Positions 3,001-50,400 of a stretch of 64,000 nucleotides of DNA are shown here, one piece after another. Source of the stretch: Ylistrum balloti (Eukaryota); assembly GCF_031769215.1 (NCBI RefSeq), contig NW_026782091.1:992001-1056000 (forward strand), in the 5' to 3' direction. How positions within the stretch are numbered: position 1 is the first letter of the stretch; each line of letters begins with the position of its first letter. Made by a program: the position numbers.

Positions 3001-5424
3001 AACAGTTTAGAGAAAATAATAATTTATCCCAGCTTAGTTTCCTGTCTACGACCATGATTTTCTATTTAAATGTAAATCCCTTTCCTATTGCCTATACCGG
3101 ATGCATGTACAAACAATATCGTATCGTGAGGTGGAAGTTCGGATACAAGATTGCATGTGTATTCCCTATCTCATGGAAATAATGCTACATTGAAACAATT
3201 TCGTCAATAGGCAGATATGTCAGTCAAATTAGACTAATCTTTAAAGCGTTCAGGTTCTTCAGTTACTCGGAAGAATAATTGAAAGCGAGTAGGTGTATGT
3301 TCATTTGCAGTGCAAGTAAGTTTTTTTAACTTACATTGTCAACTATATGGACAAACGGGCTGAAGTTAGCGAGGAATTATTCTGCTTTATCCTTTAAGTG
3401 TTATATTTGGGACATATTTAAAGAACTGGAGCGCTTGAATATCTTTAAACAAATGACTAGATGTTTGTAGAGAACACAGCAGCATATACCTATTAAACAA
3501 ACTTGTGAATCGAAAAATTGGCAACGAAATCGTAACAAACTATTCACCAAACGATTGACACAAAAATGCTGAAGAAAAATTAGCCTGGAGTTCCTGAATA
3601 GAAAGCGGGCTCTGCTTCTTCGCAGATAAATGCGTTAGATCACCGTGAAATTAAGTCGAAAATGACACGTTCTGAAAATGCATATTGAGACATCAGTTCA
3701 ATGGGTGAATGAGTGCAAAGCAAAGTACGATGCAATAGGTATGGGCAAGGTTTAAAATAAATATAGAAAATACCAACATGTCAACATAATCATAATCCAA
3801 ACTCAAATTCCAGAAAACTACGACAAAATGTGAACAAAAGAGAAAATTACATGACGACTCCGATAATAAAACCAGGTATTCTGGAAGAGTAATCGTGTTC
3901 TGCTTCACCGACGACACCCGCGTCTGCATCTTTTGAAATCCTATGCTACAAGTTTGTCCGTCTGTTTACGACCACGTGATTCATTTATATTTTTGAGAAA
4001 TAAATTCGTGATGTAATTTAGCGTCTCATTTATAAGTACCGTAAATAAAACTCGCGGAAACAAGGAAAACACAACGATGTTAATTTGTCGTTATATAGAA
4101 CATTACATCTTATCATTAATAAAAAAAAAAAGCAGACACCGATGTTGAAGTTATTTTGAAAATACTGAACATTTCAGCATTTTTGGACCGAAGTGGTACT
4201 ACGATACAGAGCAAATTTCTCATCAGTCTCTCATTACTTTTTTATAATCATCTAATACCAAGGAATGTTTCGATCTAAACTTTCACTACTTTAAATGTTG
4301 CGTCCAGATTGGATACAATTTTGTTCGGAAATCCTCATCTTAATGTAGACCTAGTCTAGTTACATATTTTATTTCAATAGTAATAATCATTGCAGATATA
4401 CAATATATGAACATTTAAACAACATTAATTGTTTCCATATATAAATGTATATAACTTGTCTCTTGTTCTGATAATGACAATAAATATGTTTTAAACGCTA
4501 ACTTCTGGAACATTTCATGTGTTTGTAATTGTCCTTATAAAGTTACCGTCCGAATTATCAAATTCCTCAAAACTACAAATATTCACTTGAAATCTGATAT
4601 TGCATAACGTAGCTATACTCGATCTCGACTATTCTCTCCATGGCAGCTGTTACCAGTCGTTAAACTTGTGACGTCATAGCCCTATAGCGTCCAATTTAGC
4701 GCAATTCACCCTTTTGATGATTAGTAGTAGGACAGGTGAAAATCGTACACTTTACACGTCAGTATCTCAATCATTCTCAAGTATTCTCAATCAGTATCTG
4801 AATCATAAAGAATGAGACTATGTTAATTTCTATTTTCACTCAACGTACAATTCAATGTAGAGGTACATGCAATTGGAACGGTTTGCTAAATACTATATAT
4901 CAAATATGCTGTTCCGAAGATCAATGTATCATATACAGTTACTATCTCTAGTATGTTTGTTGTTGTTAATCCGGTTTTCGTTTGAGGACAAAATCAATTA
5001 AAACTGCTCGAAATGATATTAGTAAATCGTTGGCAAATTTCTGCTGAGCCATTTCGAGAATGGCAGTCACTATTTCCCCAAAATATTAAGTTTCATTTGT
5101 TCCAAGAGTCCGAGTGACGCCGTGCTGTTGTCACTGTGATAGTCCATTGCATGCTTTTTAGATATAGGTTTCCAGTATGGTGAGGGTTTGAAAGACGCTT
5201 TAAATTTCTGAAATGAAGAACAGATTTGTACATTAATTACGAGAATAATTGTATACATTCAACAAAGGAACACGTATTTTTATGATACTTTTACGTCTCT
5301 GGTCTCTTCGTTAAAGTAGAATATTTACGGCAATACGATACAAAGGTATCTATGCATGTTAACAACACAGATTCAATACATCTCGAAAATAGGACTGTAC
5401 CAAATGGATGATGATGATGATGAT

Positions 5425-5476
<52 letters not shown>

Positions 5477-47400: not shown

Positions 47401-50400
47401 TCTATGAATATTTATAGGGGAAAAATTCCATACATTTCACAGTCACATACTTTTAATTTATACTACAGGCTGGGATATACGTCTACCAAATATTAGACTG
47501 GTATGTTGCGGTGACCTTACCCATCCTTGGTTTTATCGAGTGTATCATATTTGGATGGATATACGGTAAATACACTTTCTTTATTTTATGTATTTTCTTG
47601 TTATGCTTTTGTTTGTTTATTTGTTTGTTTTTTTTCTCGTTTCTTCTTCGTTTACTGGTAATCACATATCACATGCATAGACTTCCAAACTAAATCTAAA
47701 GTGAGTTTATCTTTTCAGGGGCCGAACGGTTTTCAAAAGATGTGAACATGATGCTTGGTCGTCAAATTCCTGTGTTTGTTCGGATATGCTGGTGTTTTAT
47801 AAACCCTATCGTACTTTTGGTATGCGTAAATTTTATATGACATTTAAAAACATTCCAACCAGGTTTTTTTAATCACGGAAAAGAAGTGAGAATCATACCA
47901 AATATGGTTACCCAGCCGTAAACATCTCTTCTCGTTAGAATTGTACATAATATTTTCAGAGCTTCAATGACTACTTCAAGTAACAACGTATTAACTATGT
48001 TTACAGAATTTTGTGATGTATCAATTAGTCAGTGATAAAGATAACATATACAAGAATACATTTCAGTATTTAGTAAATCACGAATCAATATTGTATTCAG
48101 GTCCTACATTTAAAGATGAACTGACAACAGGATAGGAATGGATGATCATAAGTATCCATTAATCATCATTATGGACTCTCGGGATTTTCACAATAACGGC
48201 ATGATTTCTCGCAACTTTTACATAAGGATCAAATAGTAATGTGGGCATTAGGCCATAGAAATAAAGCATGAATTGGATGACAGGTTGTCCTTTTTGTTCA
48301 GTTTATTATTTTTTCATTTTTTTTTGTTTTGTTTTTTGCTATTTTGTTTTTAAATCTACAACAATAATGTTAGAAATTTAAAAAAAAAATAAGAATTTAA
48401 AGTGCAATCAAACCGAAAAGATATTCCGTTATTAAGAAAAATAAAGAAGTAAGAGTACAAACGGACGAAATGACAGACAGAGGCAGATTTTTATAAATTA
48501 CTCCCAACTTTTGGCAACGGTGAACTTTAGAAAAAAATGTTTAGGTAAATATAAGTTAAGGTATTGACCCGGCCTGAACCGGAACGAAGGGATCTAACTC
48601 CAACAAACCCGACTTCTAATTTTTCAACGAAATTACGTTGATAATTTTATAGTATTAAGCTATTTCACGTGAAAACATTGAATGTTACATAATTTCAATT
48701 TATATAATTTACTCTCCAACATTTATGGAAACAACACTGACGTCATATGAAGCTACGATAGTAAGGTAACACATCTGCGCCAGAAGACTGCAAGGAACCA
48801 TTCCGTACCGATGAATCCGGGTTTTTTATTTACTTTTTCCGCATAGGGACGTAATTACTGGACTAAGCTGTAGAAAGAAATGTTAAGACAATGTATAGAA
48901 ATAATAGCACTTAACTGATATTACCTAATTTGAAAAAAAAATGTTAATGACTATCAATCAATTTTCATCAATTCTCACTCATTTAGACTGAAAGAATGAT
49001 TGCATTTTGTGTTCTTACATATATTTTCAGGTACTATTTGTGTTCACATTTGTATCATATGAGCCCCCAACATACGGAGACTATGTGTACCCATCTTACG
49101 CTAATATCATTGGATGGTTGATAGGAATGCTTCCCATAGTACCCGTGGTTTTGGTTGGAATCATGACCGTCTTGAAAACCCCTGGACAGTCAGTGTTCGA
49201 GGTACGGTTTCTATGTATACTGTCAACAGGCAAAAAAAAGTCTTTATCGACATACCTACTTTAATAGAATCTTCCTGGTCAGACGTGTGTTTTGAAAGTT
49301 TCACTTGGCTCTAACACAAGATGTCTGAAATTTGGATCCACATGTGTCTATTGTGGGGCAAGAGCAAGTTCTTGCGTGTTTGTTTTGTTTTGTTTATGTT
49401 TTTGTTTTTGTTTTTTTTTTGACAAACCCACAAAGGCCTACATGTGACACAGCTTTTCATTTCATCTCGGCCTTGGCGTTCACATATCAATTTCCTCCTG
49501 AGATTTTCTTTTAAAATCTTCGAATAAAATAAAAACAAATATCGAATCGTTATTTAAGTAGGAAGGTCAGCTCTGTTTCCTCTCAGAAATGAATTTCCAT
49601 ATCTTAAAGATTACAAATGGGAGCCTGAAGTTGGTTCCCAGCTTTTTATTTGTTGAATATATACAATTATTCTCGTGCAAAATGTAACACAATCTGTTCT
49701 TCATTTCAGAAATTTAAAGCGTCTTTCAAACCCTCACCATACTGGAAACCGATATCTAAAAAGCATGCGATGGACTATCACATTGACAACAGCGCGGCGT
49801 CACTCGGACTCTTGGAACAGATGAAACTAAATATTTTGGGGAAATAGTGACTGCAGTTCTCGAAATGGCTCAACAGAAATTTGCCAACGGTTTACTAAAA
49901 TGATTTCGAGCAGTTTAAATTGATTTTGTCCTAAAACGGAAACCGGATTGACGACAACAAATATACTAGAGATAGTAACTGTATATGATACATTACTCCT
50001 CACGTTGCACTTCGGATCAGAATATTTGATATATAGTATTTATCAAACCATTCCATTTGCATGTACCTCTACGTTAAAGTGTACCTTGAGTGAATATAGA
50101 AACGAACACAGACTTATTCCTTATGATCCATAATTTTAATATGGAGATGTTGGCGTGTAAAGTGTACGATTTTCACCTGTCCTACTCCTAATTAGCCAAA
50201 AGGTGTCTCGCGCTGAATGGGACGCTATCGGCTATGACGTCACAAGTACAACGACTGGTAGCAGATGCCTTGGTCAGAATAGTCGAGATCGAAAATAGCT
50301 ACGTTATGCAACATCAGATTTCAAATGAATGTTTTATAGTTTGTTATAATATGTTTAATCTGTCTCTGTCGACACTTCCAGACAAACAACAACATAATAT

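What the first reader, a model, noticed from the sequence alone, without database searches (positions are those of the whole stretch)
4570..50345. About 46-kb inverted duplication of an SLC6 + SLC16 transporter cassette with asymmetric fate
Seen: two long arms in opposite orientation around a 7.8-kb spacer. Both SLC6 genes keep all 13 exons and open frames, and exon 2 differs only by synonymous changes. The MCT survives only in the right arm because the inner breakpoint lies inside its exon 3. Inference: a fold-back-type duplication that doubled SLC6 dosage while the MCT copy was dead on arrival, with both SLC6 paralogs under purifying selection. Intron divergence of up to about 20% and several independent pseudogene lesions argue against a haplotig artefact.
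[Added by the scan's program, not by the reader: the finding's places include an assembly gap (unread letters, written N; its length is only estimated) at 5806 to 5997, 29307 to 29438. Whether the letters on both sides are continuous or in frame is not known: test that first.]
Basis: partly seen in the sequence, partly recalled or inferred. Interest (0 to 1): 0.68.

Follow-up and report, generated by a model that had tools for sequence, protein, structure and literature searches.

The report
Inverted duplicate of a scallop transporter gene
A scallop (Ylistrum balloti) carries two intact, oppositely oriented copies of one amino-acid transporter gene made by a recent inverted duplication that also left a dead fragment of the neighbouring transporter gene; this is an ordinary kind of gene-family growth in bivalves.

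Summary
Two arms, 4570-19540 and 27311-50342, are collinear in inverted orientation around a 7,770-nt spacer.

The window matches Ylistrum balloti RefSeq protein models.
- The left SLC6 copy (- strand, 13 exons) reproduces XP_060068612.1 exactly.
- The right copy (+ strand, 13 exons) matches XP_060068589.1.

Both copies are open, and 594 of 626 residues are identical. dN/dS is 0.28, and amino-acid changes are about equal on both branches.

The SLC16/MCT gene is whole only in spacer plus right arm. The left arm holds a 5'-truncated, frameshifted, stop-bearing remnant.

Neither N run touches a coding exon, and none of the four arm ends lies within 1.2 kb of an N run. The part of the repeat inside one gap-free stretch is as diverged (9.6%) as the parts that depend on scaffold joins (9.5-11.5%). 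This argues against a haplotig artefact.

Not shown: a fold-back mechanism, doubled dosage, or any conserved SLC6+MCT "cassette".

Divergence is strongly mosaic, so arm-to-arm gene conversion may add to selection. This is a lineage-specific inverted segmental duplication, both genes are already annotated, and interest is low.

The parts
4570..19540 (.). Left arm of the inverted duplication (14,971 nt): the derived copy
   Evidence: Collinear inverted BLASTN chain to 50342-27311. It is taken as the copy because its MCT part is truncated, while the right arm is continuous with MCT exons 1-2 in the spacer.
19541..27310 (.). Spacer (7,770 nt): the MCT 5' flank, MCT coding exons 24256-24464 and 25371-25514, and the first 294 nt of the large exon
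   Evidence: A sensitive search found no arm-to-arm homology except one roughly 160-nt dispersed repeat. MCT exons were placed by tblastn and junction search.
27311..50342 (.). Right arm (23,032 nt): the parental segment
   Evidence: It holds the intact 3' part of MCT and the right SLC6 gene.
5070..13658 (-). Left SLC6 gene. CDS in 13 exons: 13658-13481, 12845-12714, 12366-12042, 11307-11175, 10418-10284, 9748-9645, 9466-9342, 8713-8601, 8272-8144, 7915-7819, 7667-7567, 6339-6169, 5207-5070 (with stop)
   Evidence: Twelve of 12 junctions are GT-AG and give P0001 (XP_060068612.1, 626 aa) with 0 mismatches. SNF domain positions 1-523 of 524.
41502..49847 (+). Right SLC6 gene. CDS in 13 exons: 41502-41688, 42325-42456, 42807-43131, 43766-43898, 44873-45007, 45515-45618, 45797-45921, 46502-46614, 47115-47243, 47469-47565, 47719-47819, 49031-49201, 49710-49847 (with stop)
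   Evidence: Homologous AG/GT sites and no stops. Matches P0014 (XP_060068589.1, 629 aa), with three exons (45515-45619, 47115-47243, 49031-49201) at 100% in tblastn. SNF domain positions 2-523 of 524.
24256..28163 (+). SLC16/MCT gene. Coding exons 24256-24464, 25371-25514, 27017-27781 and 28018-28163 (with stop). One more upstream coding exon is probably missing from this list.
   Evidence: tblastn with P0012, P0007 and P0011; junctions; MFS_1 E = 3e-24. All 10 of 10 solved-structure hits are MCT1, MCT2 or MCT8. There is an acceptor at 24254-24255 and no in-frame ATG before 24335.
18920..19540 (-). MCT pseudogene fragment (3' part of the large exon plus the last exon)
   Evidence: Alignment to 27311-28163 shows four lesions: 5' truncation; a 43-nt deletion giving a frameshift; a deletion of about 123 nt that removes the donor site; and a TAG stop in the last-exon remnant. 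In the first 285 nt there are 12 differences, in 4 synonymous and 7 nonsynonymous codons.
5806..5997 (.). Assembly gap inside intron 12 of the left SLC6 gene
   Evidence: Flanks 5571-5805 and 5999 onward are both collinear with the right arm.
29307..29438 (.). Assembly gap in the right arm, about 1.1 kb downstream of the MCT stop codon (3' UTR or intergenic)
   Evidence: Flanks ending at 29257 and starting at 29441 are both collinear with the left arm.
31340..39816 (.). Right-arm-specific segment of about 8.5 kb (insertion in the right arm or deletion in the left)
   Evidence: It faces only 15610-15621 in the left arm. No Pfam-matching ORF of 50 aa or more. No terminal direct or inverted repeats. 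A 45-nt x 7.2 tandem array lies at 39248-39572.

Best explanation
This is a genuine, lineage-specific inverted segmental duplication in the scallop Ylistrum balloti.

**Inferred event.** The parental arrangement was MCT (SLC16) followed about 13 kb downstream by an SLC6 amino-acid transporter gene, both on the + strand. A segment was copied that ran from the middle of the large MCT exon to about 0.5 kb past the SLC6 stop codon. The copy was placed in inverted orientation 7.8 kb to the left, in the MCT 5' flank.

**Shown outcome.**
- The SLC6 copy arrived with all 13 exons and at least 1.4 kb of well-conserved upstream sequence.
- Both SLC6 genes have stayed intact and constrained.
- The MCT copy arrived without its 5' exons and has since decayed.

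**Inferred later changes.** The arms acquired large indels, and some stretches were probably re-homogenised by arm-to-arm gene conversion.

**Inferred function.** The product is one extra, probably functional, Na+-coupled amino-acid transporter gene in a family that is already large in bivalves.
For: - **Structure:** 16 of 21 inverted HSPs form one collinear chain.
- **Contiguity:** no N run lies within 1.2 kb of any arm end. The inner roughly 2 kb of both arms and the whole spacer lie in one gap-free stretch, 5998-29306.
- **Divergence across assembly pieces:** 9.6% within that stretch, against 9.5% and 11.5% across joins.
- **Flanks:** the left and right flanks outside the arms are unrelated.
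- **Gene integrity:**. Both copies have a full-length SNF domain.
- **Selection:** 32.5 synonymous changes over 414 sites and 32.5 nonsynonymous over 1,446 sites. This gives dS 0.083, dN 0.023 and a ratio of 0.28, with p = 1.6e-6.
- **Symmetry:** 12 right-derived, 9 left-derived and 11 unpolarised of 32 amino-acid differences, using the Pecten maximus protein as outgroup.
- **Timing:** the two copies are sisters (support 100/98) and P. maximus P0002 is their sister (100/100). P0002 is 77% identical to them, against 95% between the copies.
- **Direction:** MCT exons 1-2 in the spacer are continuous with the right arm only.
- **Decay:** the left remnant carries four lesions.
Against: - No reads, depth or expression data could be examined, so assembly correctness and activity of both copies rest on sequence logic and on RefSeq predicted models.
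- Exon 13 of the left copy and everything right of the second N run are linked to the rest only by scaffold joins.
- dN/dS could be lowered by gene conversion that copies selected sequence between the arms.
- Divergence is very uneven (chi-square over 12 introns 92.7, p = 5e-15; dispersion index 5.8 over 200-nt windows). A single clean event with uniform decay therefore does not describe the data fully.
- The insertion mechanism cannot be read from the junctions.
Confidence: 0.8

Rival explanations
1. Assembly artefact. There is only one SLC6 locus, and the stretch right of the second N run is the other haplotype of the left arm, scaffolded in inverted orientation.
For: - Two N runs lie inside the arms, so both arms depend partly on scaffold joins.
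- Bivalve genomes are highly heterozygous with many indels (recalled, not from a call).
Against: - The inverted repeat exists inside one gap-free stretch: 17532-19540 against 27311-29257, with 1,193 aligned positions.
- Divergence across the joins (9.5-11.5%) equals that within it (9.6%). It is several times the 1-2% heterozygosity I recall for scallop genomes.
- The sequence ends at each gap abut in collinear register with the other arm. That is expected of a true gap and not of an arbitrarily placed haplotig.
- The arm ends are not at gaps, and the outer flanks are unique.
Confidence: 0.07
2. Older palindrome kept similar by arm-to-arm gene conversion. The duplication is markedly older than dS suggests, and the SLC6 gene bodies are periodically homogenised. 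The exon similarity and low dN/dS then reflect concerted evolution as much as independent purifying selection. This refines the best explanation rather than excluding it.
For: - Noncoding divergence by region: 3.9% within 30 nt of exons, 5.1% at 31-100 nt, 7.8% at 101-200 nt, 10.2% at 201-400 nt and 12.2% beyond.
- Per-intron divergence ranges from 2.6% to 14.2%, heterogeneous at p = 5e-15.
- Flanks and intergenic sequence are at 12.4-14.0%, against a synonymous difference of 7.9% (binomial p = 0.0015 to 5.5e-5).
- The MCT exon fragment next to the spacer is only 4.2% different although one copy is dead.
- Perfect runs of 120 nt occur in an intron.
- Palindromic duplications maintained by conversion are a known kind (abstracts of PMC6790999 and PMC13688818, seen in the search listing).
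Against: - Splice-proximal constraint, poorer alignment of AT-rich deep-intron sequence, and repeat insertions would give a similar gradient.
- The two copies still differ at 66 of 1,881 CDS positions spread over all 13 exons, so no recent whole-gene conversion has occurred.
- With two sequences and no nucleotide outgroup, no conversion tract can be demonstrated.
Confidence: 0.3
3. Two-step origin: a direct (tandem or dispersed) duplication followed by inversion of one copy, rather than a single inverted-duplication event.
For: Nothing in the calls favours it. It is merely not excluded, because the junctions show no readable signature.
Against: It needs two events whose breakpoints coincide with the arm ends. 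No leftover direct-repeat copy or inversion scar was seen in the window.
Confidence: 0.08

Closest known systems
Palindromic (inverted) segmental duplications with a central spacer, such as gene-bearing palindromes of mammalian sex chromosomes and mouse chr12 SD12A1 (abstracts of PMC6790999 and PMC13688818 in the listing)
   Same: Two arms in inverted orientation around a unique spacer, each arm carrying an intact gene. Divergence along the arms is uneven, which is compatible with arm-to-arm conversion.
   Different: - The arms are small (15-23 kb).
- Arm divergence is about 10%, whereas I recall far less than 1% for classical Y palindromes.
- There are large arm-specific indels.
- Conversion is not demonstrated here.
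Fold-back inversions / inverted duplications from break-induced or template-switch replication (abstract of PMC10622511)
   Same: An inverted copy lies next to its template, and one breakpoint is inside a gene.
   Different: - Classical fold-backs have little or no spacer and are often linked to terminal loss. Here there is a 7.8-kb spacer and both flanks are present.
- Junction microhomology cannot be assessed at this divergence.
Lineage-specific expansion of SLC6 and SLC16 transporter genes in bivalves (passages of PMC9679248; SLC6A6 expansion in a glass scallop, passages of PMC13212745)
   Same: - One more recent duplicate in a family with more than 20 genes per bivalve genome.
- At least 10 Y. 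balloti SLC6 proteins were among the 120 hits listed.
   Different: - Those papers report counts and clusters, not this locus or its inverted architecture.
- Their supplementary tables could not be seen.
Vertebrate glycine transporter GlyT2 (SLC6A5), the closest solved structures
   Same: Full-length SNF domain. GlyT2 chains are the best solved hits (E about 1e-155).
   Different: - GAT3, GlyT1, PROT and BGT1 score nearly as well (E 1e-148 to 1e-141), so the substrate cannot be read from this.
- The scallop proteins lack the long GlyT2 N-terminus: residue 17 of the query aligns to residue 184 of 9wbr_A.

Membership tests
SLC6 / SNF (sodium:neurotransmitter symporter family, PF00209) | Full-length SNF domain above the curated cut-off in both copies | tested here: met
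   P0001 covers profile positions 1-523 of 524 (596 bits). P0014 covers 2-523 of 524 (601 bits). The cut-off is 27 bits. Exon by exon, 8 left and 9 right ORFs hit SNF.
SLC6 / SNF (sodium:neurotransmitter symporter family, PF00209) | Na+/Cl- and substrate-site residues; transport activity and substrate | not tested
   No residue-level comparison or assay was done. The names 'glycine transporter 2-like' are automatic RefSeq names.
SLC16 / monocarboxylate transporter (MFS) | MFS fold domain, with closest characterised relatives being MCTs | tested here: met
   The large exon hits MFS_1 at E = 3.1e-24. All 10 of 10 solved-structure hits are MCT2, MCT1 or MCT8. It is 57-62% identical to scallop 'monocarboxylate transporter 12' models.
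SLC16 / monocarboxylate transporter (MFS) | Complete open reading frame from start codon to stop | tested here: inconclusive
   Four exons are open and align to P0007 residues 14-428 of 453. Homology extends upstream of the first in-frame ATG to an acceptor at 24255, and the presumed first exon was not found. The RefSeq model (224 aa) skips 510 nt of the large exon.
Inverted (palindromic) segmental duplication | Two collinear arms in opposite orientation, far beyond chance, with unique flanks and spacer | tested here: met
Inverted (palindromic) segmental duplication | Physical continuity confirmed by reads spanning the junctions, with normal depth | not testable with these tools
   No read data were available. 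Indirect support: arm ends are at least 1,236 nt from any N run, and divergence within and across assembly pieces is equal.
Classical fold-back inversion | Arms abut, or nearly abut, with a spacer of at most a few hundred bases | tested here: not met
   The spacer is 7,770 nt.
Haplotig / false duplication | Copies bounded by gaps or contig ends, with allelic-level divergence | tested here: not met
   Arm ends are not at gaps. Noncoding divergence is 9.5-11.5% and dS is 0.083.
Concerted evolution by gene conversion | Demonstrable conversion tracts (discordant phylogeny along the arms, or shared polymorphism) | tested here: inconclusive
   Mismatch density is strongly heterogeneous and rises with distance from exons. 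No outgroup DNA or population data were available.

The most novel reading that the evidence does not exclude
The inverted MCT fragment (18920-19540, - strand) and the parental MCT exons (27311-28163, + strand) lie 7.8 kb apart and keep a 287-nt stretch at 96% identity. A + strand transcript that starts left of the fragment and runs into the MCT gene would fold into a long hairpin RNA. It could feed an endogenous small-RNA pathway that tunes the MCT, and by extension the palindrome's SLC6 pair, as described for pseudogene-derived hairpins in mouse oocytes (recalled, not from a call). The RefSeq MCT model skips most of the duplicated part of the large exon, and the fragment is less diverged than expected for a dead copy. 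These would be side-effects of that role. No call tested transcription or small RNAs.
Probability: 0.03. Interest if true: 0.55.

Novelty: new member of a known kind. Interest (0 to 1): 0.2.

Why it matters
The locus is a clean, datable example of how bivalve solute-carrier families grow. One rearrangement produced a complete extra SLC6 gene with its upstream region and, at the same stroke, a truncated neighbour.

The 66 coding differences between the copies allow paralog-specific expression tests. The mosaic divergence makes the locus a small test case for gene conversion between inverted arms in a mollusc.

It does not open a long-standing question. Both SLC6 genes are already annotated, and recent duplicates of this family are expected in bivalves.

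Tried and rejected
- **Arm extension into MCT intron 2.** The match 19616-19782 <-> 25886-25728 (75.6%) is collinear with the arms. The same element has weaker copies at 9006-9107 / 46143-46242, 13725-13821 / 41326-41421 and 57246-57284. I therefore treat it as a dispersed repeat. Even if it were real, MCT exons 1-2 were not copied.
- **TE-mediated breakpoints.** A roughly 35-nt resemblance was seen between the left outer boundary and the end of the 8.5-kb right-arm segment. Sensitive BLASTN found only an 89-nt and a 56-nt repeat match between the left flank and that segment, and nothing between the two outer flanks.
- **TE nature of the 8.5-kb segment.** It has no Pfam-matching ORF of 50 aa or more, no LTRs or terminal inverted repeats, and no clear target-site duplication. 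Its origin stays open.
- **RNA genes.** There were 0 Rfam matches at gathering scores and 0 tRNAs in the window.
- **Long unassigned ORFs.** The 140-aa ORF (21568-21987, -) and the 158-aa ORF (51397-51870, +) have no Pfam hit. The 158-aa ORF has no usable Atlas hit.
- **Literature.**
  - 'Ylistrum balloti' + 'genome': 14 papers, 10 listed, none on nuclear gene content by title or abstract.
  - 'Ylistrum' + 'transporter': 4 papers, 2 listed, both unrelated.
  - 'SLC6' + 'scallop': 58 papers, 12 listed, none on this locus.
  - So I found no description of this duplication in that library.
- **Synteny in other scallops.** This could not be checked.
- **Joined model left out.** I did not search with a joined spliced model of my own. 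Window searches were exon by exon, and full-length comparisons used the public RefSeq models returned by the tools.

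
Full report
**1. What is there**

The window is AT-rich, with G+C at 21,390 of 63,676 called bases. It holds two N runs, 5806-5997 and 29307-29438.

A self-comparison gave 21 inverted BLASTN HSPs. 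Sixteen of them form one collinear inverted chain running from 4570<->50342 inward to 19540<->27311. The repeat finder listed 34 inverted pairs of the same geometry.

| Feature | Coordinates | Length |
|---|---|---|
| Left arm | 4570-19540 | 14,971 nt |
| Spacer | 19541-27310 | 7,770 nt |
| Right arm | 27311-50342 | 23,032 nt |

A chained alignment covers 11,860 left-arm positions. The size difference is mostly one segment of about 8.5 kb (about 31340-39816) that faces 12 nt of the left arm. The intergenic part carries several smaller indels.

**2. Genes**

I scanned all 357 stop-to-stop ORFs of at least 50 aa against Pfam, in three calls of 150, 150 and 57 ORFs.
- Eight ORFs on the - strand of the left arm and nine on the + strand of the right arm hit SNF (SLC6).
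- One 305-aa ORF (26890-27804, +) hit MFS_1 at E = 3e-24.
- Three ORFs on the - strand at 56.9-60.7 kb hit Pkinase.

One SLC6 exon ORF, searched on its own, found 5 proteins among 115 candidates. The best was a Ylistrum balloti RefSeq model, P0001.

*Left copy.* P0001 (XP_060068612.1, 626 aa) is reproduced exactly by 13 exons on the - strand. All 12 of 12 junctions are GT-AG with 0 mismatches.

*Right copy.* The homologous 13 exons of the right arm keep AG/GT at all introns. They have the same lengths except for a 3-nt indel in exon 1, and no internal stop. They correspond to a second RefSeq model in the same 90% cluster and on the same 1.51-Mb record, P0014 (XP_060068589.1, 629 aa).

So both SLC6 genes are already annotated as separate genes. 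The window is Y. balloti.

Window searches were exon by exon, and full-length work used these public models.

**3. The gaps**

The first N run lies in intron 12 of the left copy. The second lies about 1.1 kb past the MCT stop codon. No reading frame crosses either gap.

Two things depend on the scaffold joins:
- the linkage of left exon 13 to exons 1-12;
- the linkage of the right SLC6 gene to the MCT.

On both sides of each gap the sequence is collinear, in register, with the other arm.

**4. SLC6 pair**

The CDS differs at 66 of 1,881 aligned positions plus the indel. The proteins are identical at 594 of 626 aligned residues.

I used Nei-Gojobori counts summed over exons, leaving split codons out.

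| Measure | Value |
|---|---|
| Synonymous changes / sites | 32.5 / 414 |
| Nonsynonymous changes / sites | 32.5 / 1,446 |
| dS | 0.083 |
| dN | 0.023 |
| dN/dS | 0.28 |

The synonymous excess has binomial p = 1.6e-6. Exon 2 has 4 differences, all synonymous.

I polarised the 32 residue differences with the single close Pecten maximus protein, P0002, which is 77% identical. Twelve are derived in the right copy, 9 in the left and 11 are ambiguous. If either branch were neutral, about 60 nonsynonymous changes would be expected on it. At most 23 are seen (p < 5e-8).

A maximum-likelihood tree used 23 rows chosen from the 120 listed hits plus P0014.
- Left out: the three long fused rows (P0015, P0016, P0019), all unnamed rows, and most gastropod, mussel and oyster rows.
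- Result: the two copies are sisters (support 100/98), and P0002 is their sister (100/100).

The duplication therefore postdates the Ylistrum-Pecten split, or conversion has erased older divergence.

The best solved relatives are GlyT2 chains (E about 1e-155). GAT3, GlyT1, PROT and BGT1 follow closely (76 sequences at E <= 1e-50, 60 shown), so the substrate is open.

**5. MCT**

I placed the exons with P0012 (the Y. balloti RefSeq model, 224 aa), P0007 (Mizuhopecten) and P0011 (Pecten) as guides. The gene has coding exons 24256-24464, 25371-25514, 27017-27781 and 28018-28163.

All 10 of 10 solved-structure hits of the large exon are MCT2, MCT1 or MCT8.

The arm end at 27311 lies inside the large exon. 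The left arm holds only the part from there on, with these lesions:
- a stop codon directly upstream of the retained frame;
- a 43-nt deletion that shifts the frame;
- a deletion of about 123 nt that removes the donor site;
- a TAG in the last-exon remnant.

Two side observations:
- The RefSeq model uses an internal donor at 27271 and skips 510 nt of an exon that is fully open and 62% identical to the Mizuhopecten protein.
- Homology runs upstream of the first in-frame ATG to an acceptor at 24255, so a first coding exon is probably missing.

**6. Real or artefact**

- The four arm ends are at least 1,236 nt from any N run.
- The gap-free stretch 5998-29306 contains most of the left arm, the spacer and the first 2 kb of the right arm. 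The inverted repeat therefore exists within uninterrupted sequence.
- Noncoding mismatch is 114 of 1,193 (9.6%) within that stretch. It is 765 of 8,035 (9.5%) and 86 of 751 (11.5%) for the parts that depend on joins.
- The outer flanks share nothing.
- This level of divergence is several times the 1-2% heterozygosity I recall for scallop genomes (recalled, not from a call).

Without reads or depth this remains an argument, not a proof.

**7. Mosaic divergence**

| Region | Mismatch |
|---|---|
| CDS | 3.5% |
| Introns, overall | 7.7% |
| Single introns, range | 2.6-14.2% |
| 3' flank | 13.1% |
| Upstream of SLC6 | 12.4% |
| Intergenic | 14.0% |

Heterogeneity among introns gives chi-square 92.7 with 11 degrees of freedom, p = 5e-15.

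Intron mismatch rises with distance from exons: 3.9%, 5.1%, 7.8%, 10.2% and 12.2% over the five distance classes. Mismatch counts in 200-nt windows are over-dispersed 5.8-fold. The synonymous difference (7.9%) is lower than the flank values (p = 0.0015 to 5.5e-5).

The dead MCT fragment next to the spacer differs from its parent at only 12 of 285 positions.

This pattern fits conversion seeded in conserved exons. It also fits splice-proximal constraint combined with poorer deep-intron alignment. I cannot separate the two here.

**8. Mechanism**

*Shown:* the inverted orientation, the spacer, a breakpoint inside a coding exon, and the parental role of the right arm.

*Inferred:* one event copied the segment and inserted it inverted in the MCT 5' flank, for example by two template switches during replication.

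The junction sequences show no readable microhomology or transposon ends at this divergence. 'Fold-back' in the strict sense does not fit a 7.8-kb spacer.

**9. Context and novelty**

SLC6 and SLC16 are large families in bivalves. The families SLC6 and SLC16 each have more than 20 genes in Ostrea edulis, and 75 SLC16 genes are reported in the Yesso scallop (passages of PMC9679248). SLC6A6 is expanded in a glass scallop (passages of PMC13212745). At least 10 Y. balloti SLC6 proteins were among the 120 hits listed.

Palindromic duplications with conversion, and fold-back inversions, are described kinds (abstracts in the listing). I found no paper on this locus. Supplementary tables of the cited papers could not be seen and might list family members.

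The finding is a correct and well-read observation of an ordinary event.

Noticed in passing
window 56941-60691 (- strand) and 58695-59981: A protein-kinase gene lies on the - strand. Pkinase exon ORFs are at 60455-60691, 57558-57848 and 56941-57165. A 30-nt x 42.7 tandem array (85% matches) sits between its exons, probably in an intron.
   Followed up: no
window 27017-27781: The RefSeq MCT model (P0012, 224 aa) uses an internal donor at 27271 and skips 510 in-frame nt of an exon that is open throughout and 62% identical to a Mizuhopecten MCT. The skipped part largely coincides with the duplicated part of the exon, which starts at 27311.
   Followed up: partly
window 24203-24340: MCT homology extends 26 codons upstream of the first in-frame ATG (24335) to an AG acceptor at 24254-24255. 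A short first coding exon in the spacer is probably unannotated and was not found.
   Followed up: partly
window 19616-19782, 25728-25886, 9006-9107, 46143-46242, 13725-13821, 41326-41421, 57246-57284: A dispersed repeat of about 100-170 nt (68-76% identity between copies) is present in the spacer, in SLC6 intron 7 and upstream of SLC6 exon 1 in both arms, and near the kinase gene. It has no Rfam or tRNA match.
   Followed up: partly
window 31340-39816, with 39248-39572 and 34736-34805: The right-arm-specific 8.5-kb segment has no recognisable coding capacity or terminal repeats. It ends in a 45-nt x 7.2 tandem array, and one inverted unit of that array lies 4.5 kb upstream.
   Followed up: partly
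window 5267-5570 (5407-5475): A left-arm-specific insertion of about 300 nt in SLC6 intron 12 holds a (GAT) x 22.7 microsatellite, about 330 nt from the first N run.
   Followed up: no
window 19792-20835 and 22746-22918: The spacer holds a tandem duplication of about 500 nt (19792-20277 / 20326-20835, 79% identity) and an 86-nt x 2 repeat (97%).
   Followed up: no
window 21568-21987 (-) and 51397-51870 (+): Two unusually long stop-free frames (140 and 158 aa) have no Pfam match. The second also has no usable protein-atlas hit. Both are probably non-coding or decayed repeat sequence.
   Followed up: partly
proteins P0001/P0014/P0002 (tree): The orthogroup holding the duplicated gene sits on a long stem (0.63) and evolves faster than its sister SLC6 group. 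Ylistrum-Pecten path length is about 0.39, against about 0.17 in the sister group. No Mizuhopecten or Argopecten member appeared among the 120 listed hits.
   Followed up: no
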